A stretch of 64,000 bases of DNA, taken from positions 832,713 to 896,712 of the forward strand of contig OZ244052.1 of the NCBI GenBank assembly GCA_965215125.1, read 5' to 3'. The translations under genes and the position numbers were made by a program. Positions 2,696 to 55,960 of the stretch are shown here, piece after piece; within the stretch, counting starts at the first letter, position 1; each line of letters starts with the position of its first letter. The notes below the pieces were generated by a model. The model searched no databases, was not told the DNA's origin, and saw nothing but the letters and a program-made list of their open reading frames with translations. This stretch comes from an uncultured candidatus Porisulfidus sp. (GTDB lineage: Bacteria > Pseudomonadota > Gammaproteobacteria > Poriferisulfidales > Oxydemutatoraceae).

Positions 2696-3736
2696 GTGGT
2701 CATCTCGGATCGTTTATTGAAATGGTATGCCCGTTCCGGGCGAACCGATTTGCCTTGGCAACGCAAGGTGTCGGCTTATCGGGTATGGGTCTCCGAAATC
2801 ATGCTCCAACAAACGCAGGTGCAAACGGTCATACCGTATTATCGTCGCTTCATCGGTCGTTTCCCGAGTCTCAAATCGTTAGCCGATGCGCCTTTGTCCG
2901 AAGTCATCGAACACTGGGCAGGGTTGGGATACTATGCGCGTGCCAGAAATCTACACCGCACGGCGCGCCTGATAAGAAAACATCACGGCGGTCGTTTTCC
3001 GAAAGATAAAAATACTTTGATGGAATTGCCGGGTATCGGTCGTTCTACCGCAGGTGCAATCCTAGCACTTAGTTATAATCAAAGGCATCCCATTTTAGAC
3101 GGCAATGTCAAACGCGTACTCGCCCGTCATGCCGATATTGCAGGCTGGCCGGGAGAGGCATCGGTGAACCGTGCTCTGTGGGAGCAAGCGGAGAAATACT
3201 TGCCGAAGCAAAACATAGCACAATATACTCAAGCACTGATGGATTTGGGGGCCATGATATGCACGAAAACACAACCTCAATGCGCACTTTGCCCAATCTC
3301 GGCGGATTGCCTTGCCAGAAAAGCCGGGTGTATAGCCGAACGCCCTCGGCCACCACCGACAAAAATAAAACCACAACGCCATGTATTTATGCTAATGGCA
3401 ATATACAGAGACCGTCTTTTGCTTGAGCGCAGACCGATGTCGGGGATATGGGGTGGATTATTGAGCTTCCCGGAGATGGGTAGCGAAAAGGAAGCCAAAG
3501 CATGGTGTCAAAGACGGCTCGGACACATTCGGAACGCAAGGTGTCTGCCGTCGTTCAAACATCAATTTACCCATTTCTCGTTGACCATAACGCCTTTAGA
3601 AGCAAGGCTTTCAAAAATTCATTCACAAATAAACGAGGAAAATCATCTTGTTTGGTGTAAACTTTTATCCTCAATCAACGGTGTGCCTGCACCCGTTAAG
3701 AAGCTGATAACACAACTGCAAAAAACTAACATATAG
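2696..3736 (+). CDS. mutY: A/G-specific adenine DNA glycosylase MutY
   Basis: 346 aa; LLKWYARSGRTDLPWQ start and an HhH-GPD region (LPGIGRSTAGAI); four-Cys cluster CxxxxxxC..C..C (CTKTQPQCALCPISADC); conserved mutY-yggX gene pair. Confidence 0.9.
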   Translation: MVISDRLLKWYARSGRTDLPWQRKVSAYRVWVSEIMLQQTQVQTVIPYYRRFIGRFPSLKSLADAPLSEVIEHWAGLGYYARARNLHRTARLIRKHHGGRFPKDKNTLMELPGIGRSTAGAILALSYNQRHPILDGNVKRVLARHADIAGWPGEASVNRALWEQAEKYLPKQNIAQYTQALMDLGAMICTKTQPQCALCPISADCLARKAGCIAERPRPPPTKIKPQRHVFMLMAIYRDRLLLERRPMSGIWGGLLSFPEMGSEKEAKAWCQRRLGHIRNARCLPSFKHQFTHFSLTITPLEARLSKIHSQINEENHLVWCKLLSSINGVPAPVKKLITQLQKTNI

Positions 3737-3739
3737 ACG

Positions 3740-4012
3740 ATGACCCGCAAAGTTCACTGTTTGAAACTCGGAAAAGAAGCCGAAGGCTTGGATTATGTAC
3801 CCTATCCCGGTGAACTCGGACAACGTGTTTATGATAATATCAGCGCGCAAGTATGGCAGCAATGGGTCGACCATCAAACTATGCTGATCAACGAGTACCG
3901 CCTCACCCCGATGGAACCTAAAGCACGCAAATTCCTCGAGGATGAGATGGAGAAATTTCTGTTCGGCGAAGGCTCCGAAAAACCCAAGGAGTTTGTCGAC
4001 CCGAACGAATAG
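3740..4012 (+). CDS. yggX: Fe(2+)-trafficking / oxidative damage protection protein YggX
   Basis: 90 aa; [18 protein letters not shown]...[15 protein letters not shown] is typical of YggX; sits immediately downstream of mutY as in enterobacteria. Confidence 0.8.
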
Positions 4013-4057
4013 TCGTCTCGGACGATGATGCTAAATAATCGGCAACTATAACGGCAC

Positions 4058-4133
<76 letters not shown>

Positions 4134-4200
4134 TCGTTGTGAAACCCGTTTGCGACTATTCGACCCGGTGCATTTATAGACTATAAAATGAAGTAAGGAA

Positions 4201-6897
4201 ATGGCAACAAAACTAGTATTGGTAGACGGCACCGCTTATCTATATCGTGCGTATCACGCACTGCCACCTTTAACCGGGCCTGCAGGACAACCGATCGGGG
4301 CGGTCTTCGGCGTAGGGAAAATGTTAAAAGCACTGATTAGGCAAGAGACGCCCGATTATTTTGCGGTCGTGCTCGATGCGCACGGCAAAACCTTCAGACA
4401 CGAGCTATACCCTCCGTATAAAGCACAAAGGCCACCGGCACCGGAGGATTTGATTGCCCAATCGGACACTTTGAAACACCTTATCAACGAGCAAGGTTAC
4501 CCGCTATTGGAAGTCCCCGGTGTAGAGGCGGACGATGTCATCGGTACGCTGGCTCGCAGTGCCGAGGCGGCAGGTTGGGAGGTGCTGATCTCTACCGGCG
4601 ATAAAGATATGGCTCAGTTGATCTCCGAGCGTATTACGCTAGTTGATACGATGAAGAATCAACGCATCGACTCCGATGCAATACAAAAGAAATTCGGTGT
4701 GCTACCGGAGCAGATGATCGACTACCTAGCCTTGGCAGGAGACAGTGCCGACAATATCCCCGGAGTTGTCGGTGTCGGACCTAAAACCGCGGCGAAGTGG
4801 CTTTGCGAATATCAAAACCTAGACGAAGTTATTGCACACGCAGACTCTATCACCGGCAAGGGCGGCAAAGCCCTACAAGATGCACTGCCCAAGCTACCTC
4901 TTTATAAAGATTTGGTGACCATACGCTGCGATATAACGCTGGACCACACGATTGACCAGTTAAAAATTACCGCACCCGCACCTGAGCGGTTAATCGCTTT
5001 CTATCGTGAATACGGATTTACCCAATGGCTCAAAGAAGAAACCGACGAAGCTGCCGACACGGTCGCCGAGCCAAGCACACCGATCGAACAGCCTAAATAT
5101 CAACTGATTTTGACGCAAGACACATTGGATTATTGGCTGGAAAAACTAAAGTCGGCAGACTGCTTTGCACTCGATATAGAAACGACAAGTCTGGACTATA
5201 TGCAAGCGCAGATCGTGGGATTATCGTTTGCGGTTGCTGCCGGCGAAGCTGCATATCTGCCTGTGGCACACGATTATTGTGGTGCGCCTAAGCAGTTGTC
5301 CATAGATTTGGTCTTAGCGCAGCTGCGTCCTTTATTGGAAGATCGAAAGATCGGCAAATTAGGACACAACCTTAAATACGATATGGAAGTACTGCTGAAC
5401 TACGACATTCGCTTGCAAGGCATCAGACACGATTCTATGTTGGAATCGTACGCCTATAATTCGGTTGCGAGCAGGCATAACCTAAAAGAGCTCGCATACA
5501 AATACCTCAATATTCGGATGCAAACATACGAGGATATTACCGGCAAAGGTGTCAAGCAAAGACCATTTGTTCAGATCGCAGTGAGAACCGCCGCCGAATA
5601 CGCCTCAGCCGATGCCGATTATAGCTTGCAACTACATGAATATTTTCATCCTCGCTTGAAAAAAACCTTACCGTTGCTCAAGGTCTACGAGGAAATAGAA
5701 ATGCCGTTGTTGCCGGTCATCGCCGAGATAGAACGCACCGGCGTGCTGATCGATGCCGACCGTTTGTCCGAACACAGCCGTGAATTGCAAGAAGCAATCT
5801 CTCAAACCGAACAACAAATTTATCAACTGGCAGGACACGATTTTAATATCGCCTCACCCAAACAAATACAAACCGTGCTGTTCGACGAAGCGGAACTGCC
5901 GGTGATTAGCAAAACCCCCAAGGGTCAAGCCTCTACCTCCGAAGACGTGCTACAAGAACTCGCCCACGACCATGAACTCCCGAGATTGATCTTGCACCAT
6001 CGCTCGCTCAGCAAACTAAAATCAACCTACACCGACAAACTACCGCAGCTGATCAATGCCGAGACCGGGCGGGTACACACCTCTTATCACCAAGCGGTTA
6101 CCTCAACCGGACGCTTATCGTCGTCCGACCCCAACCTGCAAAACATTCCTATCAGAACCGCCGAAGGACGGCGCATACGCCAAGCCTTTATCGCCCGCAA
6201 AGGCTATTGCCTCATCGCCGCAGACTACTCGCAGATAGAAATGCGCATCATGGCACATGTATCCCAAGACCCGGGTCTATTGAATGTATTCCAAAAAGGT
6301 ATGGATATGCACCGCGCAACCGCTGCCGAGGTCTTCGGTTGCAAACCGGAGGCAGTCGATGACGAGCAACGACGCATTGCCAAAGCCATAAACTTCGGAC
6401 TGATTTACGGAATGTCGGCATTCGGTCTCGCAAGACAACTCAATATAGATAATAGAGAAGCGGCGGATTATGTGAAAACCTATTTTGAGCGGTTTGCCGG
6501 TGTGCGGACCTATATGGACGACACGCGTGAACAAGCGCGCAAACAAGGTTATGTGGAAACCATCATCGGTCGGCGGTTGTATTTGCCGGAAATCAACGCC
6601 AAGGATGCTCGCCGTAGACGCTACGCCGAGCGCACCGCAATCAATGCGCCGATGCAAGGGTCGGCTGCCGATATTATCAAACGAGCGATGATACGCATTG
6701 CCGAACAATTCAAGGACGACCCGAACGATGCGGTGATGATTATGCAGGTACACGACGAGCTAATTATAGAAGTGGCAGAACCGCATGCCGACGATGTAAT
6801 GAACAAATGCTGTGCCTTGATGGAGTCGGCGGTGGAACTTTCGGTGCCGCTAAAAGTCAACGCGAGTATCGGCAATAATTGGGACGAGGCGCACTGA
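4201..6897 (+). CDS. polA: DNA polymerase I
   Basis: 898 aa; 5-prime nuclease N-terminus (LVLVDGTAYLYRAYHALPPLT); 3-5 exo and polymerase motifs (RRxAKAINFGLIYG, QVHDELI). Confidence 0.95.
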   Translation: MATKLVLVDGTAYLYRAYHALPPLTGPAGQPIGAVFGVGKMLKALIRQETPDYFAVVLDAHGKTFRHELYPPYKAQRPPAPEDLIAQSDTLKHLINEQGYPLLEVPGVEADDVIGTLARSAEAAGWEVLISTGDKDMAQLISERITLVDTMKNQRIDSDAIQKKFGVLPEQMIDYLALAGDSADNIPGVVGVGPKTAAKWLCEYQNLDEVIAHADSITGKGGKALQDALPKLPLYKDLVTIRCDITLDHTIDQLKITAPAPERLIAFYREYGFTQWLKEETDEAADTVAEPSTPIEQPKYQLILTQDTLDYWLEKLKSADCFALDIETTSLDYMQAQIVGLSFAVAAGEAAYLPVAHDYCGAPKQLSIDLVLAQLRPLLEDRKIGKLGHNLKYDMEVLLNYDIRLQGIRHDSMLESYAYNSVASRHNLKELAYKYLNIRMQTYEDITGKGVKQRPFVQIAVRTAAEYASADADYSLQLHEYFHPRLKKTLPLLKVYEEIEMPLLPVIAEIERTGVLIDADRLSEHSRELQEAISQTEQQIYQLAGHDFNIASPKQIQTVLFDEAELPVISKTPKGQASTSEDVLQELAHDHELPRLILHHRSLSKLKSTYTDKLPQLINAETGRVHTSYHQAVTSTGRLSSSDPNLQNIPIRTAEGRRIRQAFIARKGYCLIAADYSQIEMRIMAHVSQDPGLLNVFQKGMDMHRATAAEVFGCKPEAVDDEQRRIAKAINFGLIYGMSAFGLARQLNIDNREAADYVKTYFERFAGVRTYMDDTREQARKQGYVETIIGRRLYLPEINAKDARRRRYAERTAINAPMQGSAADIIKRAMIRIAEQFKDDPNDAVMIMQVHDELIIEVAEPHADDVMNKCCALMESAVELSVPLKVNASIGNNWDEAH

Positions 6898-7029: not shown

Positions 7030-7806
7030 ATGATAATTTCCCACAAATTGCAAGTCATATTTATAAGACCAGTCAAGACTAGTGGTTCATCATTTGAAAC
7101 AGCACTAAAATATTATTGCGGTAAAGGTGATGTAGTTACAGATGATAAAAATTTTGTAAACTATTATAACGGTCATGATTTTACAAACGGCCACATAAGT
7201 GCTTCTGATATCAAGCGTAAGATACCGAAGAATATTTGGGATAATTACCTTAAAATATCTATTGTCCGCTGTATTTACGATTCTATAATTTCTTTATACT
7301 ATTGGGAACATATTGGGCTTAAAAAACCTCAACCTGTAAACTTTAGAACATATGTTTTACTTTCAGGGAATAGACAAATAGAACGTAATTTTAGAAGGCT
7401 TTGTGATGGTCAAAAATCTATCGTTGATTTTATTATTAGATATGAAAATGCAGACGAGGATATTACGGATTTAGAATGGAAAATAGGCTGTGTCGGCTTA
7501 CTAAACAAATATAAATCTAGGTCTGAAAAAACAAGAATTCGTCCTCACGGACAAGATATCTTCAAAGTTTACTCTAAGTACCCGATAGCGAGAGAACTAG
7601 TAGATACGCACTTCACCGAAGCTATGGAACGAAATGAACTTATTCAAAAATACTACCCGCTGTACAAGGAAAGGTTGAGCCGAAAAATTCCAGAACCGGG
7701 ATATCTTCCCAGAAAAACGGCGAAACTACTATTCTCTTTATATAATTATTATCCGATACGAAGATTGTATTATAAAAAACGATCCCGTTTTGAGACTGTA
7801 ATTTAA
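7030..7806 (+). CDS. sulfotransferase-fold protein (putative, PAPS-dependent)
   Basis: 258 aa in a visibly AT-rich tract; a 5-prime-PSB-like loop IRPVKTSGSSFE (compare the K-x-G-[ST]-[ST] motif of sulfotransferases); a 3-prime-PB-like segment IVRCIYDSIISLYYW (R...D...S.Y); no reliable homolog recall beyond the motifs. Confidence 0.4.
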   Translation: MIISHKLQVIFIRPVKTSGSSFETALKYYCGKGDVVTDDKNFVNYYNGHDFTNGHISASDIKRKIPKNIWDNYLKISIVRCIYDSIISLYYWEHIGLKKPQPVNFRTYVLLSGNRQIERNFRRLCDGQKSIVDFIIRYENADEDITDLEWKIGCVGLLNKYKSRSEKTRIRPHGQDIFKVYSKYPIARELVDTHFTEAMERNELIQKYYPLYKERLSRKIPEPGYLPRKTAKLLFSLYNYYPIRRLYYKKRSRFETVI

Positions 7807-9170
7807 ATTGTGTAAGTTCTAATTAAGATAAACTAGGTGGCAACACCAAACTAATAAAGGAGAACTTATGAAAGATATAAAAAGCATCGGGAAAGAATTA
7901 TCCCGTCATGTAAAGACCCAACAAGAGATGACCGATATCATCGGTCAGTTGATTAAGTCAATGATGGAAGGCATACTCAATGCGGAGCTGGACGACCATC
8001 TCGGCTATGAGAAAAACGACAAAGCATCCAAGCGTAGAAAGAATACCCGCAACGGGCATAGTGCCAAGACCTTAAAGACCAATTATGGGGATATAACGAT
8101 ACAGACACCGCGAGATCGGGAGGCGTCGTTTGAACCGATGATTGTGCCGAAAGGGAAAACCCGTTTAGACGGATTTGAGGATACGATATTGGCACTCTAT
8201 GCGCAAGGGATGACGGTGCGACAGATACAAGAGTCGATTAAAGAGTTGTATCATGGTGCGGAGATTTCTACTGCGGTTATCTCGAATGTCACCGATGCGG
8301 TGATAGACGAGGTGCGGACTTGGCAGAGCCGAGTGTTAGAGTGCCTCTATGTGGTGATGTATCTGGATTGCATCGTCGTCAAAGTGCGAGAGCAAGGCCG
8401 TATCATTAACAAGTCGATCTATGTTGCACTGGGCATAAAGCGCAGTGGACGCAAGGAATTACTCGGGTTGTGGATTGCCGAGACCGAAAGTGCTAAGTTC
8501 TGGTTAGCGATATTAACCGAGCTACAAAATCGGGGTGTGAAAGATATCTTGATCTGTTGCATAGATGGTCTGAAGGGTTTCGCAGAGGCGATTGCCAGCG
8601 TCTATCCGCAGGCAAAAATACAACTGTGTCTAGTCCACATGATGAGAAACTCGCTACGCTATGTTGCGACTAAAGATAAGAAAGCAGTCTCGGCAGCGTT
8701 AAAGAAGATATACAATAGTCCTACGGCGCAGGCTGCCGAGCAGGCGTTAGATGAGTTTGCCGATTGCTGGTCGGCAAAATATCCGAGTGTTGAGCGGTCG
8801 TGGCGCAATAACTGGGACAACCTGATTACGTTATTTGATTACCCGCCGGAGATTAGAAAAATTATCTATACAACGAATGCGATAGAAAGTCTCAATAGCG
8901 TGATTAGAAAATCCATCCGCAACCGGAAGATATTCCCGAGCGACCAATCGGCATTGAAAGTAGTTTATTTGGCAATCAAAAAAGCCTCTGCTCGCTGGAC
9001 GCTGCCGATACGAAATTGGATACCGGCGATGAACCGATTAGCTATTGAATACGAAGGTAGATTTGATATTGAGGAAAACGAAGTTACACAAAATAGTTAA
9101 CAGGCTCCCCGTTTTGGTCCCATTCCTTTTTTAAACAACGAAGATAAGCTAGTCTGATACATTCTTGAAA
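7805..9170 (+). mobile_element. IS256-family insertion sequence (boundaries approximate, terminal inverted repeats not identified)
   Basis: Transposase ORF 7868..9100 with a strong RBS (AAAGGAGAACTTATG); IS256 elements usually extend about 60-100 bp beyond each end of the ORF; I could not see convincing terminal IRs by eye. Confidence 0.45.
7868..9100 (+). CDS. IS256-family (mutator-type) transposase
   Basis: 410 aa; the N-terminal region LDDHLGYEKNDKASKRRKNTRNGHSAKTLKTNYGDITIQTPRDREASFEPMIVPKGKTRLDGFEDTILALYAQGMTVRQIQ is typical of IS256 transposases; DDE region present with the conserved C-terminal W...IE. Confidence 0.9.
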   Translation: MKDIKSIGKELSRHVKTQQEMTDIIGQLIKSMMEGILNAELDDHLGYEKNDKASKRRKNTRNGHSAKTLKTNYGDITIQTPRDREASFEPMIVPKGKTRLDGFEDTILALYAQGMTVRQIQESIKELYHGAEISTAVISNVTDAVIDEVRTWQSRVLECLYVVMYLDCIVVKVREQGRIINKSIYVALGIKRSGRKELLGLWIAETESAKFWLAILTELQNRGVKDILICCIDGLKGFAEAIASVYPQAKIQLCLVHMMRNSLRYVATKDKKAVSAALKKIYNSPTAQAAEQALDEFADCWSAKYPSVERSWRNNWDNLITLFDYPPEIRKIIYTTNAIESLNSVIRKSIRNRKIFPSDQSALKVVYLAIKKASARWTLPIRNWIPAMNRLAIEYEGRFDIEENEVTQNS

Positions 9171-24210: not shown

Positions 24211-24552
24211 CTACTTAGGTCTATAATCGGCGGAGGTTTCATTCACGGACACTCGCCTATGATCAAAAACCACATACTTTTCCTTGATGACTTTCTTAAA
24301 ATCATCCGATATGTTTTGCCAATCTAAAACATCTACTTTGAAAGGAAGATCCGATTCTTCAAAGTCAAATTTAAGTAAGTTCATAACCTGCAAAGGTATT
24401 TTGTTTTGTGAAACGATAGCCAAGTCAAGATCGGAACTATTATTCGCAGTCTGCTTTACGCGCGAACCGAAAACCCAAATCGTTGCATCGGGAACATGCT
24501 TTTTAAGAATACGCCGAACAATTTTCTCGTGACGAGGTCGCAGGCTAATCAT
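24211..24552 (-). CDS. minimal nucleotidyltransferase (MNT), antitoxin-type partner of HEPN
   Basis: 113 aa; pol-beta-type NTase motif GSRVKQTANNSSDLDLAIV (GS...DxD); overlaps the upstream HEPN gene by 8 bp. Confidence 0.7.
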   Translation of the reverse strand: MISLRPRHEKIVRRILKKHVPDATIWVFGSRVKQTANNSSDLDLAIVSQNKIPLQVMNLLKFDFEESDLPFKVDVLDWQNISDDFKKVIKEKYVVFDHRRVSVNETSADYRPK

Positions 24553-24958
24553 TTAATTTCCGTTCCATTTGTTTGAGGACATATTGAACCTCTTGCAGAA
24601 AATCATCGGTTGCGTAAAAAACTTGATCGGCAATGCTTAAATCGTAAGTATGGGAACTATTATCTCTATTATTTTTATAGACGAACCATTTCTCGGCATC
24701 CGATAAAATCCCTACTTTTTGACCGTAACGAAAGATATCCCGAATAGGCATTTGATCGAAGTTTTCGTCGTAATATTCCTTTAAGTAGCGAACCAGCATT
24801 TTGCGCGCCATTTCATAGCTAATAACAAATGCCTGAATAGCCCCTCTTTTTAGTGAGCGCTCGTGTTTTTCGTCCGTCCCCTTATATTTGTTATAGATAG
24901 TCAGAGACTCTTCCAATGCTACGATAGTTTTCTTAAAACTACTTAAATCAAGTGCCAT
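24545..24958 (-). CDS. HEPN-domain protein, HI0074-family nucleotidyltransferase substrate-binding protein (toxin-type)
   Basis: 137 aa; HI0074-like sequence and a C-terminal Rx4H HEPN motif (RDNSSH). Confidence 0.7.
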   Translation of the reverse strand: MALDLSSFKKTIVALEESLTIYNKYKGTDEKHERSLKRGAIQAFVISYEMARKMLVRYLKEYYDENFDQMPIRDIFRYGQKVGILSDAEKWFVYKNNRDNSSHTYDLSIADQVFYATDDFLQEVQYVLKQMERKLND

Positions 24959-27336: not shown

Positions 27337-28298
27337 TCATTTATAGGGTCGGATATAGCCATAGCCTCTATTTCCAGGAGTAGTTCGGTGCGGCACATCT
27401 GTCCTTCGAACACCTGCAATTCAATATCCAAACCTAAATGTCTATCAATCAGTGTAGCGATGTCTGCCGATACGCGCTTGTCTACATACAGTTTGATGTG
27501 TCGCAATCGTTCAATCGGCATTTTGCTATAACGATGTTCTGTTTTGGCTGCTTCGCTCAATAACGAGTTTAGATTATTTACTATCTCGTTTAATTGTGCG
27601 TCTGCATCACCCTCGTGCAAGCTCTCGTGGCCTACGATTGCAGCGGTGCCGGAGATATAAAGATGACTTTTGCCCCCCCATTGTTTTAGCGTTGCACGCG
27701 CAAACATAGGGGCTGGTTCTACATAGTGCTTGGGGTACATATACGGTAAAGTCTGACGAGGATTTTTGACGGCGATACCCGCTTTGCGAGCCGCAACAAA
27801 ATAGACTACGCCGTAGTGTGCCCCCGTTCCGATCACGGTGGCAGCGCAATAAGAATCCTCTTTATGCAAGGAAAAAGCCTGCGCCCTTGCATCGCAAAAC
27901 ACTTGATAATCGGATGGTTCGGCAAGTTGTGGCAAATAGTGCCAAACCCTCAACAACGAATAATGTTCCGAGTTTAATAGTTGCACCATATCTTTGTATG
28001 TTTCTCGCAAATCTTCGGCAATACGCTTTTGATCGAGTTCGGCATGCCCGAATAAAACGGCATCGTTGAAGGCATAAGATAATTTCCCGCGTTCTCCGAG
28101 ATGAACCGGTTGGTCGGCATACCAATTCTCAAAAGGTTGTATTTGACACAAAGGCATCAAGTTTGTTTTTATGACATCTTCGGGTGCGTATGCTTTCAGG
28201 GCAATGCTGGCGAGACGGCATGGATGGTCGGATGACAATGGCTCTTTTTCAAGCCGTATATCAAAAGGCATTTGGGGCTGTTGAAAGTGTATTGGCAT
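27333..28298 (-). CDS. FkbO/Hyg5/XanB2-like chorismatase candidate (N-terminal domain + RidA/YjgF-like C-terminal domain)
   Basis: 321 aa; the C-terminal about 110 aa (LYISGTAAIVGHE...NEIVNNLNSLL...IKLYVDKRVSAD...ELQVFEG...EIEAMA) fits the RidA/YjgF fold; the two-domain size matches the FkbO-family chorismatases; translationally coupled to mutM (4-bp overlap). Confidence 0.35.
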   Translation of the reverse strand: MPIHFQQPQMPFDIRLEKEPLSSDHPCRLASIALKAYAPEDVIKTNLMPLCQIQPFENWYADQPVHLGERGKLSYAFNDAVLFGHAELDQKRIAEDLRETYKDMVQLLNSEHYSLLRVWHYLPQLAEPSDYQVFCDARAQAFSLHKEDSYCAATVIGTGAHYGVVYFVAARKAGIAVKNPRQTLPYMYPKHYVEPAPMFARATLKQWGGKSHLYISGTAAIVGHESLHEGDADAQLNEIVNNLNSLLSEAAKTEHRYSKMPIERLRHIKLYVDKRVSADIATLIDRHLGLDIELQVFEGQMCRTELLLEIEAMAISDPINE

Positions 28299-39314: not shown

Positions 39315-39377
39315 ACCAAAACCTCATTAGTTGAAAAGCCTATTTTACATGATAACCTACATGCTTAGAGGCGGACT

Positions 39378-39494
39378 ATTCCCCTCCTGTGGAGGGGTGG
39401 CAGGCGCAGCCTGACGGGGTGGTTATTCCCCTCCTGTGGAGGGGTGGCAGGCGCAGCCTGACGGGGTGGTTATTCCCCTCCTGTGGAGGGGAAT
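39378..39494. repeat. head-to-tail tandem array of repeat module c (2.5 x 47 bp)
   Basis: attcccctcctgtggaggggtggcaggcgcagcctgacggggtggtt appears twice exactly and is then followed by attcccctcctgtggaggggaat; lies between fdxA and xthA. Confidence 0.9.
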
Positions 39495-45476: not shown

Positions 45477-46829
45477 TTATCGCAGTGAATCTATCAGTTG
45501 GTCTTTCAGCCTGCCAAAATCGCCATTGGACATAATCAGCAAATGGTCTCCCTCTGCTAGCTCTTCAATAATTGCATGTTTTAGCTGTGCTATATCGTTA
45601 TGATACGAATACCGAGTTTTAGTTTTTTCCAATACCACTTCCGCCGACCAATCTAAATCCGGGGGGCTATAAAAGAAAAGACAGTCCGCTTCGTCAAAAG
45701 CGGCACCGAGCACTCGGTTGTGTTTACCTGCTTTCATCGTATTTGAACGTGGTTCAAAAGCAACCAATACGCGAGAGACTTTCCGGGCGCGCAATGCTTC
45801 TATGCTTGCCTTGATTTCAGTCGGATGATGGGCAAAATCATCGTAGACGGTAACTCCCTTATAGGTTCCGCAAACCTCAAGCCGACGGCGTACACCTTCA
45901 AAACTCTCTAGTGCTTGCAATGCGGTTCGGGGTGGCACACCGACATGCGCTGCGGCTGCGATTGCGCCTAAGGCATCGGCAATATTATGATCACCCGATA
46001 GCTTCCAGCGACAACATCCTTGCTGTCTGCCTTTATGAGATAATTCAAAGCCGTCGTTGCGCTTACGCGCCTGCCAGTCGGCAGTTTTATCCCCTGAATC
46101 AAAATACTCGCATTGCGACCAAAGTCCTTGTTCCAGAACATCTTGCAATGCGGTGTCGAAGGCGCGCACTAACACAACGGTATCCGCTGCCAGTGTTTTG
46201 AGTAAGTGATGAAACTGTGTCTTTATGGCATCTAAATCCTTAAAAATATCGGCATGGTCAAATTCTAGGTTGTTGAGCACCAAAACCTGCGGGCGATAGT
46301 GGATAAACTTCGATCTTTTATCAAAAAAAGCGGTATCGTATTCGTCGCCCTCTATAACAAACAAATCGGATTGTCCCAGGCGTGCAGAAACACCGAAGTT
46401 GATCGGCACGCCGCCGATTAGAAACCCCGGCTGCATTCCGGCAAACTCTAATATCCATGCGAGCATAGAAGCGGTCGTCGTTTTACCGTGCGTGCCGGCA
46501 ACGCATAAAACTCGGCGGTATTGCAGAACCTGTTCGTAAAGCCATTGCGGTCCCGAGTAGATAGGCATACGCCGGGCTAGCAAGGCTTCCACCGACTCGT
46601 CGCCTCTACACATTGCGTTGCCGACGATATAAATATCGTAACCGTCTAGCAACGATGCACTACAAGGTTGATCCAAACCGATGTTATGGGATGCCAACTG
46701 CTCGCTCATCGGCGGCCAAGCCGCTTTATCACAGCCTTGAACAAAATAGCCGAGTTCGCGGGCAATACCCGCAAGACCCGCCATAAAAGTGCCGCATATC
46801 CCGAGTAAATAAACTTTGCCTGCAGGCAT
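45477..46829 (-). CDS. mpl: UDP-N-acetylmuramate:L-alanyl-gamma-D-glutamyl-meso-diaminopimelate ligase
   Basis: 450 aa; Mur-ligase family with the Mpl-type N-terminus (LLGICGTFMAGLAGIAR) and GTHGKTTT P-loop. Confidence 0.85.
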   Translation of the reverse strand: MPAGKVYLLGICGTFMAGLAGIARELGYFVQGCDKAAWPPMSEQLASHNIGLDQPCSASLLDGYDIYIVGNAMCRGDESVEALLARRMPIYSGPQWLYEQVLQYRRVLCVAGTHGKTTTASMLAWILEFAGMQPGFLIGGVPINFGVSARLGQSDLFVIEGDEYDTAFFDKRSKFIHYRPQVLVLNNLEFDHADIFKDLDAIKTQFHHLLKTLAADTVVLVRAFDTALQDVLEQGLWSQCEYFDSGDKTADWQARKRNDGFELSHKGRQQGCCRWKLSGDHNIADALGAIAAAAHVGVPPRTALQALESFEGVRRRLEVCGTYKGVTVYDDFAHHPTEIKASIEALRARKVSRVLVAFEPRSNTMKAGKHNRVLGAAFDEADCLFFYSPPDLDWSAEVVLEKTKTRYSYHNDIAQLKHAIIEELAEGDHLLIMSNGDFGRLKDQLIDSLR

Positions 46830-46837
46830 AGTTCAAA

Positions 46838-47401
46838 TCACATAGCCATCAACGATACGAACAAACTACTCATTAAATAGAGCATCGCAATACCAATCGC
46901 AAAAGGCAGGCGTACTTCCAATGCATGAAGAAAAATATGCCCTAAGACTCTTAACATCCATATAAACAATGCCAAATAAACCAATGCGATTACCGCCCCG
47001 GCAGGAGAACTTTGCACCTGCGATTGAGCCTCTACGCCGAAACCGATAAGGTCGGCAGCAAAGAAGTTCAACGGTATAAACAAAACGCTAAACAAAGCGA
47101 TGCTACCGGTAATCGCTATCGCAGTTTGTGTGAAACGCATAGGAAAGCGGAATAACCATAATATTACTTTCAAGAAGGCTAACAAGAAAAACAAATCTAC
47201 GACGGTTTCCAACAAGTTAACTTCGGTCAAGCCTGTTGCAAGGCCCGAGAGAATGCCCATGGCAACCATAAAAGCACAAGACAAAATAAGTAATTTTCTG
47301 TATGCAGGCAGTTGTTGCGGAGTTGCCCGCAGTAGTATCAGATGCCATAGGATAACGATGAAATCCATCAATATCTCCCATAGTATTAATATAGATCTCA
47401 T
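46838..47401 (-). CDS. hypothetical integral membrane protein
   Basis: 187 aa, 5-6 hydrophobic segments; no motif recognised. Confidence 0.4.
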   Translation of the reverse strand: MRSILILWEILMDFIVILWHLILLRATPQQLPAYRKLLILSCAFMVAMGILSGLATGLTEVNLLETVVDLFFLLAFLKVILWLFRFPMRFTQTAIAITGSIALFSVLFIPLNFFAADLIGFGVEAQSQVQSSPAGAVIALVYLALFIWMLRVLGHIFLHALEVRLPFAIGIAMLYLMSSLFVSLMAM

Positions 47402-47448
47402 GATTTATTCAATCCGTCGCACTCGTATCGGTAGTGGGGTTAATACAC

Positions 47449-48213
47449 TCAATCGCGCGTGAAAACCCACTGTGTTTCGTTGGATAGCTTGGTCCGGTAA
47501 CGATAATTTCCTTCGCGAAACCGCTTCAGTAATTCGGGTGTCTTAATACGGTTTTTGATAATGTAGCGCGCCATCATACCTCGGGAGCGTTTGGCGGTGA
47601 AACTAATGACCTTATAGGTTCCGTTCTTTTTCTCCTTGAATATCGGCGTGATGATTTTAGCATCGAGATGATCCGGAACGATAGAATGAAAATACTCGTT
47701 GGATGCCAGGTTGATCAACACCGCATTACGCATCTTCTTAAGTTCGGCATTAATCGCTTCGGTGATGCGAGCACTCCAAAAATCGTAGAGGTCTTTGCCT
47801 TGTTTGTTTTTGAGACGGGTACCCATCTCAAGCCGATAAGGCTGTATCATATCCAACGGTTTTAAGACACCGTACAAGCCCGATAGTATACGCAGATGCT
47901 TTTGCGCAAAATCAAAATCTTTAGCCTCAAAGCTGGTAGCATCCAAACTCGAATACACATCGCCGTCAAAGGCTAAAAGTGCCTGCTTAGCTTTGGGGGT
48001 CGTCGTAGAGTTATCCCATAGCTTAAAACGGTCGGTATTCAAATCGGCAATTTTCGTGCTGACCGACATTAACTCCTGCAGTTGCTCGGTAGATAACTTT
48101 CGCAATCGCGTAACTAAATGGTTTGCATCCTCTAAAAATAGCGGCACGCTCTGTTTGCGTATCCTATTGCTATCAAAATCAAGACGTTTCGCTGGTGAAA
48201 TAATAACAATCAT
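47449..48213 (-). CDS. yaaA: peroxide stress protein YaaA (UPF0246)
   Basis: 254 aa; MIVIISPAKRLDF start characteristic of the YaaA/DUF328 family. Confidence 0.8.
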   Translation of the reverse strand: MIVIISPAKRLDFDSNRIRKQSVPLFLEDANHLVTRLRKLSTEQLQELMSVSTKIADLNTDRFKLWDNSTTTPKAKQALLAFDGDVYSSLDATSFEAKDFDFAQKHLRILSGLYGVLKPLDMIQPYRLEMGTRLKNKQGKDLYDFWSARITEAINAELKKMRNAVLINLASNEYFHSIVPDHLDAKIITPIFKEKKNGTYKVISFTAKRSRGMMARYIIKNRIKTPELLKRFREGNYRYRTKLSNETQWVFTRD

Positions 48214-49589
48214 AATTAATTCGTAATTTTTTTTATGCTCTTATTGTCTGCAACTCCATAACTGGGAATTATGTATTTAACCTGACAAGGTTTTTAGCCT
48301 TGCCATGTTCAACCATTTTTTGACGCTTCACAGACCAACAAATGTTGCAATCTCGACACCCGATAGCGGCACTCCCAGCCGCCATAATGTTTAATGCAGC
48401 ATTGATGTCCGCATTGCCCTCGTGTCCGCAGTACTGACACTTAAATATCGCTTGTGTTTTGCGGTTAGCTTTATTTACGCTTCCACATTTATTACAGGTT
48501 TGACTCGTGTAGTGTGCCGGCACTTTCTCCACATGGGCTTTGTAGCTTAAGCATTGCTCTAGCCTACTCCAGCCACTCTTTAGTATCTCCCTGTTCAAAC
48601 CTGACTTCGCCTTCACATTCTTACTCGGGCTGTCTATCGTCCCCTTCGCCGACTTCGTCATGCCTGCTGTATTCAATCCTTCCATATAAACACTATCGTA
48701 TTTATCTGCTATTAGCTTGTTGGTTTGATGACTCCAATTCGCTCTCACAAATCGCTCCGCTTGATATGCGCTCTGTAGTCTATGCTTCGCTAGCTTTCGT
48801 CTATTGCTCCCCTTGACCCGTCTTGCCACCATTCGTTGATAGTGCCTACGCCTTGCTTCCTTAAGCTTTAGGTCGGGTAGGTGATATATCGTTCCGTCCG
48901 ATAATGCTATCTGTCCCACATTCCTATCCAAACCCACTTCCTTTAGCATGTGCGGTTTGTCCGCTATCTCTACTTCATAAGTGATATAAGCATACCAGTT
49001 TCCGTACTCATGCTTCACTTGACCCGATACAAACTTCTCACCTTTATACCTATCCCCACCGGCAAACTTCATCCAACCAACCTTCTGTATGTAAATATGC
49101 TCGCCCGCTATTCGTGCTGTTTGCTTATCTATTGAAAATGAAGGATTATATGTATATCTGCTGTGAAACTTCGGCAATCCGCCATTACCAGTAAAGAAGT
49201 TTCTATAGCTAGTTTCTATTGGTTTTAATGACATCTTCACTATATAAGCGGAATATCCTTGCAGCCACTTGTCGCAATGCTTCCGCAAAGTCGTAAATTG
49301 CTTGCCTATTGTGAAATAACTAAACCGGCTCTCCCCGTAATACTCGTACTCGTCTCTCAACTTCTCTACAAAGTGATTCCAAACATATCGGCATGCGCCT
49401 GCAGTCCCGTGTAGCTTCTGGTGTTTCTCTTTTGTCGCCGGGTAAAGGCGATAGCGGATTGTTCTGTGGATTTTCATTGGTTTATTTTAACATTTTCTTG
49501 TCAAGTTATATGCATAATTCCGACTCAAGTAAATAGAATATCACCACTTGCTTCAAATGAACCGGCACTATACCCGTGCAGATACGACG
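48214..49589 (-). mobile_element. IS1341-like (tnpA-less IS605-family) element, approximate limits
   Basis: The tnpB ORF with about 55 bp to the yaaA start on one side and about 110 bp before the next repeat-family copy on the other; the ends are not defined by visible hairpins, so the limits are approximate. Confidence 0.4.
48269..49477 (-). CDS. tnpB: RNA-guided endonuclease TnpB (IS200/IS605 family OrfB, IS1341-like solo)
   Basis: 402 aa; N-terminal OrfB_IS605 region; RuvC-I GLDRNVG; RuvC-II YMEGLN; zinc finger CNKCGSVNKANRKTQAIFKCQYCGHEG; RuvC-III NADINAALNI; all three catalytic acidic residues present; no tnpA nearby. Confidence 0.85.
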   Translation of the reverse strand: MKIHRTIRYRLYPATKEKHQKLHGTAGACRYVWNHFVEKLRDEYEYYGESRFSYFTIGKQFTTLRKHCDKWLQGYSAYIVKMSLKPIETSYRNFFTGNGGLPKFHSRYTYNPSFSIDKQTARIAGEHIYIQKVGWMKFAGGDRYKGEKFVSGQVKHEYGNWYAYITYEVEIADKPHMLKEVGLDRNVGQIALSDGTIYHLPDLKLKEARRRHYQRMVARRVKGSNRRKLAKHRLQSAYQAERFVRANWSHQTNKLIADKYDSVYMEGLNTAGMTKSAKGTIDSPSKNVKAKSGLNREILKSGWSRLEQCLSYKAHVEKVPAHYTSQTCNKCGSVNKANRKTQAIFKCQYCGHEGNADINAALNIMAAGSAAIGCRDCNICWSVKRQKMVEHGKAKNLVRLNT

Positions 49590-49700
49590 GGGCTGTTGAA
49601 AAAGTATTCACGAACTGTAGGACGGTACATTCCCCTCCTGTGGAGGGGTGGCAGGCAGAGCCTGACGGGGTGGTTAATTCCCCTCCACAGGAGGGGAATA
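49590..49700. repeat. composite repeat (ggggctgttgaaaaagtatt module + module c + inverted-loop c half)
   Basis: acggggctgttgaaaaagtattcacg...attcccctcctgtggaggggtggcaggcagagcctgacggggtggttaattcccctccacaggaggggaat, between the tnpB upstream end and the tgt stop. Confidence 0.8.
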
Positions 49701-49701
49701 G

Positions 49702-55782: not shown

Positions 55783-55960
55783 TGGGGCTGTTGAAAAAGT
55801 ATTTCATACATCATAGGGGCGGACTTGCATGTCAGCCCGTAACGCGTTATGCCTGCACGATTTATACATTCATTCATCCAATTTATGGAAACCAAAACCA
55901 TACGGCGCAAACGGTTAAGTTTGTGCAAAACGGTACTTTTTCAACAGCCTCACATCACTA
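55783..55960. repeat. inverted-repeat (MITE-like) element
   Basis: Left arm atggggctgttgaaaaagtatttcat; right arm acggtactttttcaacagcctcacat (16-bp perfect arms ggctgttgaaaaagta); a spacer of about 125 bp; the same arm sequence occurs singly at 49590. Confidence 0.6.

What the first reader, a model, noticed from the sequence alone, without database searches (positions are those of the whole stretch)
48214..49589. Solitary, catalytically intact TnpB (OMEGA RNA-guided nuclease) inserted between yaaA and tgt
The 402-aa TnpB retains all RuvC acidic residues (GLDRNVG, YMEGLN, NADINAALNI) and the CxxC...CxxC zinc finger. There is no tnpA in the window. The 3-prime flank (about 48150-48330, minus strand) should encode the omega RNA scaffold plus guide. 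The 5-prime side is directly abutted by a repeat-family copy (49590) that shares its ggggctgttgaaaaagtatt module with the MITE-like IR at 55783. This hints that the repeat family and the IS605-type element may be mechanistically related, for example repeats mobilised in trans by an IS200/IS605 or RAYT transposase.
Basis: partly seen in the sequence, partly recalled or inferred. Interest (0 to 1): 0.5.

Follow-up and report, generated by a model that had tools for sequence, protein, structure and literature searches.

The report
TnpB element with inverted-repeat ends
The gene is a real, intact RNA-guided nuclease (TnpB), but its 1.26-kb mobile element has inverted-repeat ends and family-wide 8-bp target duplications like a cut/copy-and-paste transposon, not IS605-type ends, and it is unrelated to the neighbouring repeats.

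Summary
A 402-aa TnpB (48269..49477, minus strand) has intact RuvC D/E/D residues and zinc finger, and it is under purifying selection. The IS605-type reading does not hold.

- **Ends:** alignment with 19 related loci from sponge-associated gammaproteobacteria defines a 1,259-bp tnpB-only element (48264..49522) with ~25-nt terminal inverted repeats. The stop codon lies inside the right repeat.
- **Target duplications:** 12 of 20 family copies have an 8-bp duplication, against 0.26% of mismatched controls. Neither IS200/IS605 nor IS607 elements make these.
- **Empty site:** yaaA orthologues without tnpB show a precise insertion that splits a conserved yaaA promoter. The window copy has only a 3-bp duplication.
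- **Omega RNA:** the last ~175 nt fold into a conserved, covarying structure ending at the right terminus. The presumed guide is 48244..48263.
- **Repeat module:** the module at 49589 lies 66 nt outside the element and is already present at the empty site, so it is unrelated.
- **Transposase:** no Y1 or serine tnpA was found among the window ORFs examined. An IS256-family DDE element at 7792..9107 has unlike ends, so the mobilising transposase is unidentified.

The closest precedent is the DDE-associated and solo TnpBs with inverted terminal repeats (Altae-Tran 2023). Verdict: a new variant of a known, rare kind, of moderate interest.

The parts
48264..49522 (-). Whole tnpB-only insertion element, 1,259 bp
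   Evidence: Similarity among 20 loci starts and stops at these termini. The empty site in L094 places the window's flanks 49608..49523 and 48263..46128 contiguously.
49497..49522 (-). Left terminal inverted repeat, CGGAATTATGCATATAACTTGACAAG
   Evidence: About 22 of 26 positions match the reverse complement of the right end, by my reading of the alignment printed (tallies 9/10 outer and 12/15 inner). The outer GGGAATTAT is conserved family-wide and the inner 15 nt co-vary with the right end.
48264..48289 (-). Right terminal inverted repeat (+ strand GGGAATTATGTATTTAACCTGACAAG). It contains the tnpB stop codon (48269-48271), and its inner part is the 3' arm of the terminal hairpin.
48269..49477 (-). 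tnpB, 402 aa, RuvC D/E/D and CxxC..CxxC intact
   Evidence: dN/dS is 0.09-0.17 over codons 1-340.
48264..48440 (-). Omega-RNA (reRNA)-like scaffold inside the 3' end of the CDS, running to the right terminus
   Evidence: RNAalifold gives 32 pairs, 11 with compensatory changes. 98.7% of cells are paired against 27-42% when partners are slid, and 0 of 500 shuffles reach the observed covariation score. Each copy folds a terminal hairpin. dS is 2-4-fold lower here. Transcription was not tested.
48244..48263 (-). Presumed guide segment (AGUUAUGGAGUUGCAGACAA), which is flanking DNA overlapping the -10 region of the split yaaA promoter
   Evidence: Inferred from the position immediately 3' of the right terminus, by analogy with TnpB/Fanzor reRNAs (PMC10711439). 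Its 20 nt are identical to the empty site in L094.
48261..48263 (.). Right copy of the 3-bp duplication (AGT on the minus strand)
   Evidence: The L094 homologies 3039-3123 and 3121-5250 overlap by 3 nt.
49523..49525 (.). Left copy of the 3-bp duplication (AGT on the minus strand)
49528..49533 (-). Displaced -35-like hexamer (TTTACT; TTGACT in relatives) of the ancestral yaaA promoter
   Evidence: TTGACT-N17-GACAAT is conserved upstream of yaaA in L092-L094. The hexamers were read from that alignment.
48243..48248 (-). -10-like hexamer (GACAAT) of the ancestral yaaA promoter, now 1.26 kb from its -35

Best explanation
**Anatomy (shown).** Window 48264..49522 is a 1,259-bp non-autonomous insertion element. 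It carries only tnpB and, inside the last ~175 nt of that gene, the scaffold of its guide (omega/re) RNA. It is bounded by ~25-nt terminal inverted repeats. It belongs to a clade of TnpB elements (at least 52% identity) found in sponge-associated gammaproteobacteria. Family members are typically flanked by 8-bp target-site duplications. The element inserted precisely into the spacer of the yaaA promoter. TnpB is under purifying selection and has an intact catalytic site.

**Mobility (inferred).** Members move by staggered-cut integration of the DDE-transposase type. They are mobilised in trans by a transposase that recognises the conserved outer terminus GGGAATTAT. They are not moved by a Y1 (IS605) or serine (IS607) TnpA.

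**Nuclease function (inferred).** Transcripts running through the right end are processed into an omega RNA. Its 3' guide is the flanking sequence AGUUAUGGAGUUGCAGACAA. This would programme TnpB to cut alleles that lack the element.

**State of the window copy (inferred).** It is old and probably poorly mobile. Its TIR is decayed (about 22/26), its left terminal G has changed to C, and it has a 3-bp rather than 8-bp duplication.
For: - Termini: common to 20 loci, with unrelated flanks.
- TSD: 12 of 20 loci match at 7/8 or better, 7 of them perfectly, against 0.26% of mismatched-pair controls.
- TIR co-variation: within an element 13.1/15 inner positions match, against 7.0/15 between subfamilies. 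The outer 10 nt are conserved at 8.3-9.0/10.
- Clade specificity: TIRs are absent in relatives at 45% identity or less, where the IR score equals the control.
- Empty site and split promoter.
- Target preference: a roughly symmetric R-N8-Y, not an asymmetric TAM (the 3' pyrimidine was tallied by eye in about 9 of 12 loci).
- RNA structure with covariation and controls.
- Selection: dS is depressed and dN/dS raised only in the RNA-overlapping codons.
- Protein: catalytic residues align. Only the generic TnpB NCBIfam model passes.
- Copy number: at least 2 in the window's genome and 5 in one Porisulfidus genome.
- Precedent: inverted terminal repeats around DDE-associated TnpBs, and solo TnpBs presumed to be mobilised in trans (PMC10691335). 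TIR and TSD are incorporated into Fanzor reRNAs (PMC10711439).
Against: - No partner transposase with matching ends was found in the window or in roughly 220 kb of related flanks (my estimate of the total).
- The only DDE element in the window (IS256 family, 8-bp TSD) has unrelated TIRs.
- At least seven subfamilies have different inner TIRs. Each would seem to need its own partner, unless only the outer 10 nt are recognised.
- The window copy itself has only a 3-bp duplication.
- No TAM could be inferred.
- No promoter was predicted on the tnpB strand, and no expression data exist.
- Single-sequence folding is not significant (z = -1.06).
Confidence: 0.6

Rival explanations
1. This is an IS200/IS605-family (IS1341-group) element that moves as single-stranded DNA through a Y1 HUH TnpA supplied in trans. 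It would have subterminal LE/RE hairpins and a TAM 5' of the left end.
For: - Pfam domains carry IS605 names.
- The IS200_TnpB NCBIfam model is the second-best hit.
- The right end does contain a hairpin.
- Most solo TnpBs are of this type (PMC10691335).
Against: - True terminal inverted repeats reach the last base, and the family shows 8-bp duplications of arbitrary sequence.
- There is no conserved 4-5-nt motif 5' of the insertion.
- The IS200_TnpB score of 164 is far below its cut-off of 425.
- No Y1 transposase was found among the window ORFs examined.
- IS200/IS605 elements have no TIRs and make no TSDs (PMC13565253, PMC7290912, PMC3119063).
Confidence: 0.04
2. No separate transposase exists. 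TnpB (an RNase-H-fold RuvC enzyme), perhaps together with its RNA, itself takes part in moving the element. Alternatively the ends are regenerated by copying one from the other. Either would explain why the inner TIR tracks the omega RNA stem in every subfamily.
For: - All 20 copies are tnpB-only, and no partner was seen in roughly 220 kb of flanks.
- The inner TIR co-varies with the tnpB subfamily and doubles as the terminal RNA stem.
- Several subfamilies coexist in one sponge metagenome.
Against: - There is no precedent. TnpB is dispensable for transposition in IS608, ISDra2 and IS607 (PMC13565253, PMC6188088).
- Genome sampling here is small, and the collection scans were exhausted.
- MITE-like elements routinely lack a nearby partner.
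Confidence: 0.07
3. The window copy is no longer a mobile element in practice. It is an old, fixed insertion kept because the host or the locus now depends on it. For example, yaaA may be transcribed by read-through from tgt/tnpB after its own promoter was split. The nuclease could also serve another role.
For: - The terminus is decayed: the left G has changed to C, the TIR matches at about 22/26, and the duplication is 3 bp rather than 8 bp.
- The closest relative is only 82% identical, yet the ORF is intact with dN/dS about 0.13-0.16.
- The insertion separates the -35 and -10 of a conserved yaaA promoter, and no hybrid promoter is evident.
- tgt, tnpB and yaaA are co-oriented.
Against: - Purifying selection is measured along the whole lineage, not on this copy alone.
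- The catalytic residues are intact, unlike the domesticated nuclease-dead TldR-type TnpBs.
- There are no expression data.
- This rival is not exclusive of the main explanation.
Confidence: 0.2
4. An IS607-type element moved by a serine-recombinase TnpA.
For: Some TnpB lineages switch between Y1 and serine partners (PMC10691335).
Against: - IS607 elements have no TIRs and no TSDs (PMC6188088).
- The IS607_TnpB NCBIfam score of 69 is far below its cut-off of 350.
- No resolvase-type gene was seen among the window ORFs examined.
Confidence: 0.02

Closest known systems
DDE-transposase-associated TnpB branches (DDE-1 to DDE-6) and their solo derivatives (Altae-Tran et al. 2023, PNAS, PMC10691335)
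   Same: - TnpB lies inside symmetric, inverted terminal repeats rather than IS605/IS607 ends.
- The tnpB 3' end lies within 250 bp of the transposon end.
- Solo tnpB copies carrying such ends are presumed to be mobilised in trans.
   Different: - No transposase gene is linked in any of the 20 copies examined.
- The DDE families named for those branches are IS630, ISL2 and IS1031 (PMC13565253). From my own knowledge of ISfinder, these make 2-3-bp duplications, not 8 bp.
- Whether this clade falls inside one of the six branches could not be tested, because their tree and supplementary files were not compared.
Fanzor1 / Fanzor2* elements of eukaryotes and their viruses (Yoon et al. 2023, NAR, PMC10711439; Bao & Jurka 2013, PMC3627910)
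   Same: - A TnpB-family nuclease is carried by TIR/TSD cut-and-paste-type elements, often non-autonomous.
- The TIR forms part of the reRNA scaffold, and the guide lies beyond it.
   Different: - This element is bacterial, and the protein is a compact 402-aa TnpB.
- There is no evidence on whether the TSD is part of the scaffold.
- The stop codon lies inside the TIR.
IS200/IS605 family, IS1341 group (tnpB-only elements)
   Same: - The element holds one gene, tnpB, with the omega RNA overlapping its 3' end and a guide taken from the right flank.
- Multiple diverged copies occur per genome.
   Different: IS1341-type elements have subterminal palindromes, no TIRs, no TSDs and a 4-5-nt target motif (PMC3119063, PMC13565253). 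This element has TIRs and TSDs and lacks such a motif.
MITEs / mobile insertion cassettes (non-autonomous TIR elements)
   Same: TIRs plus TSDs, no transposase gene, and dependence on a transposase elsewhere.
   Different: At 1.26 kb it carries a functional passenger (an RNA-guided nuclease and its RNA) that overlaps one TIR.

Membership tests
TnpB / OMEGA RNA-guided nucleases | HTH/WED-REC N-terminus, split RuvC with D-E-D, and a C4 zinc finger (TNB domain) | tested here: met
   Pfam PF12323, PF01385 and PF07282 all exceed their cut-offs. NCBIfam guided_TnpB scores 187 against 100. The catalytic residues and cysteines align with the ISDra2-like structure 9yyg, and ISDra2 TnpB entries match over residues 7-376.
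TnpB / OMEGA RNA-guided nucleases | A structured omega/reRNA overlaps the 3' end of tnpB and ends at the right transposon end, followed by a flank-derived guide | tested here: inconclusive
   Conserved structure with covariation and controls supports a functional RNA. There are no transcript data, and no Rfam family matches even at E of 10 or less. The guide is inferred from position only.
TnpB / OMEGA RNA-guided nucleases | RNA-guided, TAM-dependent DNA cleavage | not testable with these tools
   This needs a biochemical or TAM-depletion assay. No TAM-like motif was found 5' of the targets.
IS200/IS605 family (including the IS1341 group) | No terminal inverted repeats; asymmetric ends with subterminal hairpins | tested here: not met
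   Terminal inverted repeats of ~25 nt reach the last base in the window copy and in 19 related loci.
IS200/IS605 family (including the IS1341 group) | No target-site duplication; insertion 3' of a fixed 4-5-nt motif | tested here: not met
   An 8-bp TSD is present in 12 of 20 loci, against 0.26% of controls. Only a purine preference is seen at position -1.
IS200/IS605 family (including the IS1341 group) | TnpB matches the family-specific NCBIfam model | tested here: not met
   NF038281 scores 163.8 bits against a cut-off of 425.
IS607 family | Serine-recombinase TnpA; no TIRs, no TSD (0-2 bp); family-specific TnpB model | tested here: not met
   TIRs and 8-bp TSDs are present. NF038280 scores 69 against 350. 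No resolvase gene lies in the element.
TIR-flanked (DDE-type) TnpB elements sensu Altae-Tran 2023 | Inverted terminal repeats around tnpB, with the tnpB 3' end within 250 bp of the end | tested here: met
   The stop codon lies 5 nt from the terminus.
TIR-flanked (DDE-type) TnpB elements sensu Altae-Tran 2023 | A DDE transposase sits within the same ends in at least some members, or identical ends occur on an autonomous element | tested here: inconclusive
   None was found in 20 loci, the window or roughly 220 kb of flanks.
TIR-flanked (DDE-type) TnpB elements sensu Altae-Tran 2023 | Phylogenetic placement within branches DDE-1 to DDE-6 | not tested
   The published tree and supplementary files were not compared.
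IS256 family (as candidate mobiliser) | Ends resemble those of the resident IS256-family element (7792..9107) | tested here: not met
   The TSD length is the same (8 bp), but TIR similarity is at chance level.
TldR-type domesticated, nuclease-dead TnpB | Loss of RuvC catalytic residues and loss of transposon ends | tested here: not met
   D/E/D are intact and both ends are present.

The most novel reading that the evidence does not exclude
This is a bacterial TnpB lineage that abandoned IS605/IS607-type ends. It now spreads only as solo elements with TIRs and 8-bp TSDs, in which the right TIR is at the same time the terminal stem of the guide RNA. Every subfamily keeps its two ends matched to that stem. 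No conventional transposase partner exists, and TnpB, its RNA, or an end-copying mechanism takes part in mobility.
Probability: 0.07. Interest if true: 0.9.

Novelty: new variant of a known kind. Interest (0 to 1): 0.45.

Why it matters
TnpB's accepted role is to restore IS605/IS607 elements after scarless excision, using a TAM that equals the transposase's target motif. A clade that moves with TIRs and 8-bp duplications and shows no evident TAM at its insertion sites is a natural test of what the nuclease does for a different kind of transposon. It would also be a bacterial parallel to the step that produced eukaryotic Fanzors. In addition, it gives a compact 402-aa nuclease with a scaffold defined by covariation, and an exactly defined empty-site target. 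For annotation, it shows that a 'solo TnpB' should not be filed under IS200/IS605 without checking its ends.

Tried and rejected
- **Exact-sequence look-ups.** Look-ups of the window TnpB and its paralogue returned no record, so the paralogue's ends could not be read.
- **Rfam.** No TnpB-associated RNA family was found at gathering threshold or at E of 10 or less.
- **Single-sequence folding.** The 3' region is not significant on its own (z = -1.06). Only the comparative data carry weight.
- **Promoter scan.** No sigma-70-like promoter was found on the tnpB strand.
- **IS256-family element as partner.** It has the same 8-bp TSD but TIR similarity at chance level, and no homologue lies in the related loci.
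- **L009 insertion.** It is an IS3-family element (HTH and integrase-like ORFs, identified by reading) that disrupts tnpB. It is not a partner.
- **Plasmid collection.** Relatives reach only 36% identity or less, which is uninformative.
- **Viral-contig scans with subfamily TIRs.** One terminal remnant and no autonomous element were found.
- **TAM search.** Only a purine at position -1 emerged.
- **Similarity between the hairpin repeat (ATTCCCC...GGGGAAT) and the TIR tip (GGGAAT).** The overlap is 6-7 nt and the flanks are inconsistent, so I judged it to be chance.
- **Recombinant copy at a synteny breakpoint.** I first suspected this would explain the missing 8-bp TSD. I rejected it because both flanks are contiguous at the empty site. 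The synteny break lies further upstream.
Full report
**1. The observation**

The region holds a 402-aa ORF at 48269..49477 on the minus strand.

- Pfam finds HTH_OrfB_IS605, OrfB_IS605 and the Cas12f1-like TNB zinc-ribbon domain, all above their cut-offs.
- The NCBIfam generic 'RNA-guided endonuclease TnpB' model passes at 187 bits against 100.
- A PDB search aligns GLDRNVG, YMEGLN and NADINAALNI with the RuvC D, E and D, and CNKC...CQYC with the zinc finger, of an ISDra2-like nuclease (9yyg). ISDra2 TnpB entries match over residues 7-376.
- The best-scoring solved relative for the RuvC half is RdCas12n (9J09, PMC12216341).
- The neighbours are YaaA and Tgt.

**2. Where the element really ends**

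A scan of species-representative genomes returned nine related loci from sponge-associated gammaproteobacterial MAGs (Ca. Oxydemutatoraceae, Ca. Porisulfidus, a Thiotrichales). Five copies lie in one Porisulfidus chromosome. Exact look-ups and a metagenome scan added further loci at 52-77% identity.

- Alignments of both ends show that similarity in every locus begins at GGGAATTATATAC, about 45 nt upstream of the ATG. It stops at the exact inverse, GTATATAATTCCC, which contains the stop codon. The flanks are unrelated.
- The inverted repeat extends to about 25 nt. In the window the left end is CGGAATTATGCATATAACTTGACAAG. The reverse complement of the right end is GGGAATTATGTATTTAACCTGACAAG.
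- The outer 10 nt are conserved family-wide. The inner 15 nt match within an element (13.1/15) but differ between subfamilies (7.0/15).
- More distant relatives (45% identity or less) show no inverted repeats beyond a same-strand control. The architecture is therefore a derived trait of this clade.

**3. Target-site duplications**

With boundaries fixed at the termini, 12 of 20 loci have 7/8 or more identical bases between the 8 nt left and right of the element. Seven are perfect. Only 0.26% of mismatched left/right pairs reach that level.

The 5' neighbour of the duplicated octamer is always a purine. The 3' neighbour is mostly a pyrimidine, by my own tally of the flanks in about 9 of 12 loci. 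This is a weak, roughly symmetric integration preference. No 4-5-nt motif of the TAM type is present.

IS200/IS605 (including IS1341-type) and IS607 elements have neither TIRs nor TSDs (PMC13565253, PMC6188088, PMC7290912, PMC3119063). The family-specific NCBIfam TnpB models are both missed by a wide margin: 164 against 425, and 69 against 350.

**4. The window copy is a precise insertion**

YaaA orthologues at 85-89% identity were located on three contigs that lack tnpB.

- Their yaaA upstream regions read ...TATTCTATTGACTTGAGT^TATGGAGTTGCAGACAAT... continuously.
- In L094, the homologue of the window's left flank (49608..49523) and that of its right flank (48263..46128) overlap by 3 nt.
- The element is therefore 48264..49522 (1,259 bp) and is flanked by a 3-bp duplication (AGT) rather than 8 bp.
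- Its left terminal base is C instead of G, and its TIR matches at about 22/26. I read it as an old copy. A 5-bp loss at one junction is possible but not shown.
- The insertion separates the -35 (TTGACT) from the -10 (GACAAT) of a conserved sigma-70-like yaaA promoter.
- No replacement promoter is evident. Since tgt, tnpB and yaaA are co-oriented, yaaA may now depend on read-through. This last step is inference.

**5. Omega RNA**

A 19-sequence alignment of the last 230 nt up to the right terminus gives a consensus of 32 base pairs, 11 of them with compensatory double changes. It includes a closure between an upstream GGA and the terminal UCC.

- 98.7% of cells are paired, against 27-42% when partners are slid by 1-3 columns.
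- The covariation score is 0.338, against 0.10 or less when slid.
- None of 500 shuffles reaches the observed score.
- Compensatory changes alter amino acids, for example GCGGC/GCCGC to GCCTT/GGGGC. One subfamily carries an 18-nt insertion that extends a hairpin.
- Every copy folds a long terminal hairpin whose 3' arm is the inner right TIR.
- dN/dS is 0.09-0.17 over codons 1-340. In the last ~60 codons dS falls 2-4-fold and dN/dS rises to about 0.3-1.2 in most pairs, as expected for an overlapping RNA constraint.
- Rfam has no matching family.

In the window the scaffold occupies about 48264-48440. By position, the guide would be 48244-48263 (AGUUAUGGAGUUGCAGACAA), which is identical to the empty site in L094. 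Transcription, processing and cleavage are inferred, not shown.

**6. Transposases**

Among the window ORFs examined, none is a Y1 or serine transposase (and my reading). That was a partial scan rather than a full Pfam pass: the printout was cut, and several short or overlapping ORFs were neither scanned nor read.

There is an IS256-family element at 7792..9107, with Transposase_mut at E = 1e-119, 28-nt TIRs and a perfect 8-bp TSD, CCCGTTTT. Its TIRs resemble the tnpB TIRs no better than chance, and no homologue lies in the related loci.

Outside tnpB elements, the outer terminus motif occurs only as remnants or neighbouring copies. The mobilising enzyme is unidentified.

**7. The repeat hypothesis**

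- The module GGGGCTGTTGAAAAAGTATT (49589-49608) is real, but it lies 66 nt outside the element.
- It forms the terminal inverted repeat of a separate 168-bp MITE-like element at 55784..55951.
- It occurs in related genomes away from tnpB.
- It is present upstream of yaaA in L094, which has no tnpB. It therefore predates the insertion.
- The hairpin repeats (ATTCCCCTCC...GGAGGGGAAT) share only 6-7 nt with the TIR tip.

There is no support for a mechanistic link.

**8. Comparison with what is known**

Altae-Tran et al. (PMC10691335) report six DDE-transposase-associated TnpB branches. All have inverted terminal repeats, and solo TnpBs carry the same ends and are presumed to be mobilised in trans. 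The DDE families named are IS630, ISL2 and IS1031 (PMC13565253). From my own knowledge of ISfinder, these make 2-3-bp duplications.

In eukaryotes, Fanzors ride TIR/TSD transposons, and the TIR and TSD enter the reRNA scaffold (PMC10711439).

The present clade works like these. It differs in three ways: it is bacterial, it is solo in every copy seen, and it has 8-bp TSDs with a TIR that doubles as the terminal RNA stem. Membership of a specific DDE branch was not tested.

**9. Verdict**

The gene call is right, and the IS605-type and repeat-related interpretation is not. The best explanation is a non-autonomous tnpB-omega RNA element of TIR/TSD type, mobilised in trans by an unidentified DDE-type transposase. 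Confidence in the anatomy is about 0.9, and in the mechanism about 0.6.

Three points remain unexplained:
- the subfamily-specific co-variation of both ends with the RNA stem;
- the absence of a TAM;
- the 3-bp duplication of this copy.

This is a new variant of a known, rare kind, of moderate interest.

Noticed in passing
window 7792..9107: An IS256-family insertion sequence. The Transposase_mut ORF is at 7868..9100. It has 28-nt imperfect TIRs, a perfect 8-bp TSD CCCGTTTT, and a stop codon inside the right TIR.
   Followed up: yes
window 55784..55951 (also 49589-49608, 28274-28293): A 168-bp MITE-like element bounded by GGGGCTGTTGAAAAAGTA inverted repeats. Single arms of the same module sit in other intergenic regions and in related genomes (L001, L003, L092-L094).
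   Followed up: partly
window 18600, 31616, 39372-39494, 42903, 49623-49701, 63802; L093 6250-7765: A modular hairpin repeat family (ATTCCCCTCCTGTGGAGGGG..GGCAGGC..CCTGACGGGGTGGTT) fills many intergenic regions. It is shared across genera of sponge symbionts. In L093 it forms tandem arrays with a period of about 156 nt.
   Followed up: partly
window 48243-48248 and 49528-49533; L092-L094 upstream of yaaA: The tnpB element splits a conserved sigma-70-like yaaA promoter (TTGACT-N17-GACAAT) between its -35 and -10. yaaA may now be read through from tgt/tnpB.
   Followed up: partly
L092, L093, L094 versus window 49600-49700: The gene upstream of yaaA differs in every relative (groES/EL, an unknown ORF, a Na/Ala symporter; tgt in the window), while the downstream order yaaA, a 176/180-aa ORF, mpl is conserved. 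This is a rearrangement hot spot at the repeat cluster.
   Followed up: partly
L010 1420-1460: A solo right-end remnant of a different tnpB subfamily (..TGCGGATTTGGGTATATAATTCCC) lies 4 nt upstream of the left end of an intact element. This is an insertion next to an older end.
   Followed up: partly
L095 (IMG/VR UViG_3300033112_000219) 5489-5600: A phage-classified contig carries a right terminus plus about 130 nt of the omega-RNA-like region without a tnpB ORF behind it. An ORF with a TnpB-like N-terminus lies about 1 kb away at 3769-4569.
   Followed up: partly
L009 2690-4460; L007 4001-5202: Decayed family members. L009 is interrupted by an IS3-family element (HTH and integrase-like ORFs, identified by reading). 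L007 is a frameshifted copy at the same site as the intact L004.
   Followed up: partly
window tnpB residues 208-366: The RuvC/TNB half, including the insertion GMTKSAKGT..KNV..KSGLNR, matches the type V-N effector RdCas12n (9J09, E = 2e-27) better than ISDra2 TnpB.
   Followed up: partly
window 24211..24958: Two small adjacent ORFs that read like a nucleotidyltransferase/HEPN toxin-antitoxin pair. This was judged by eye from the translations and not scanned.
   Followed up: no
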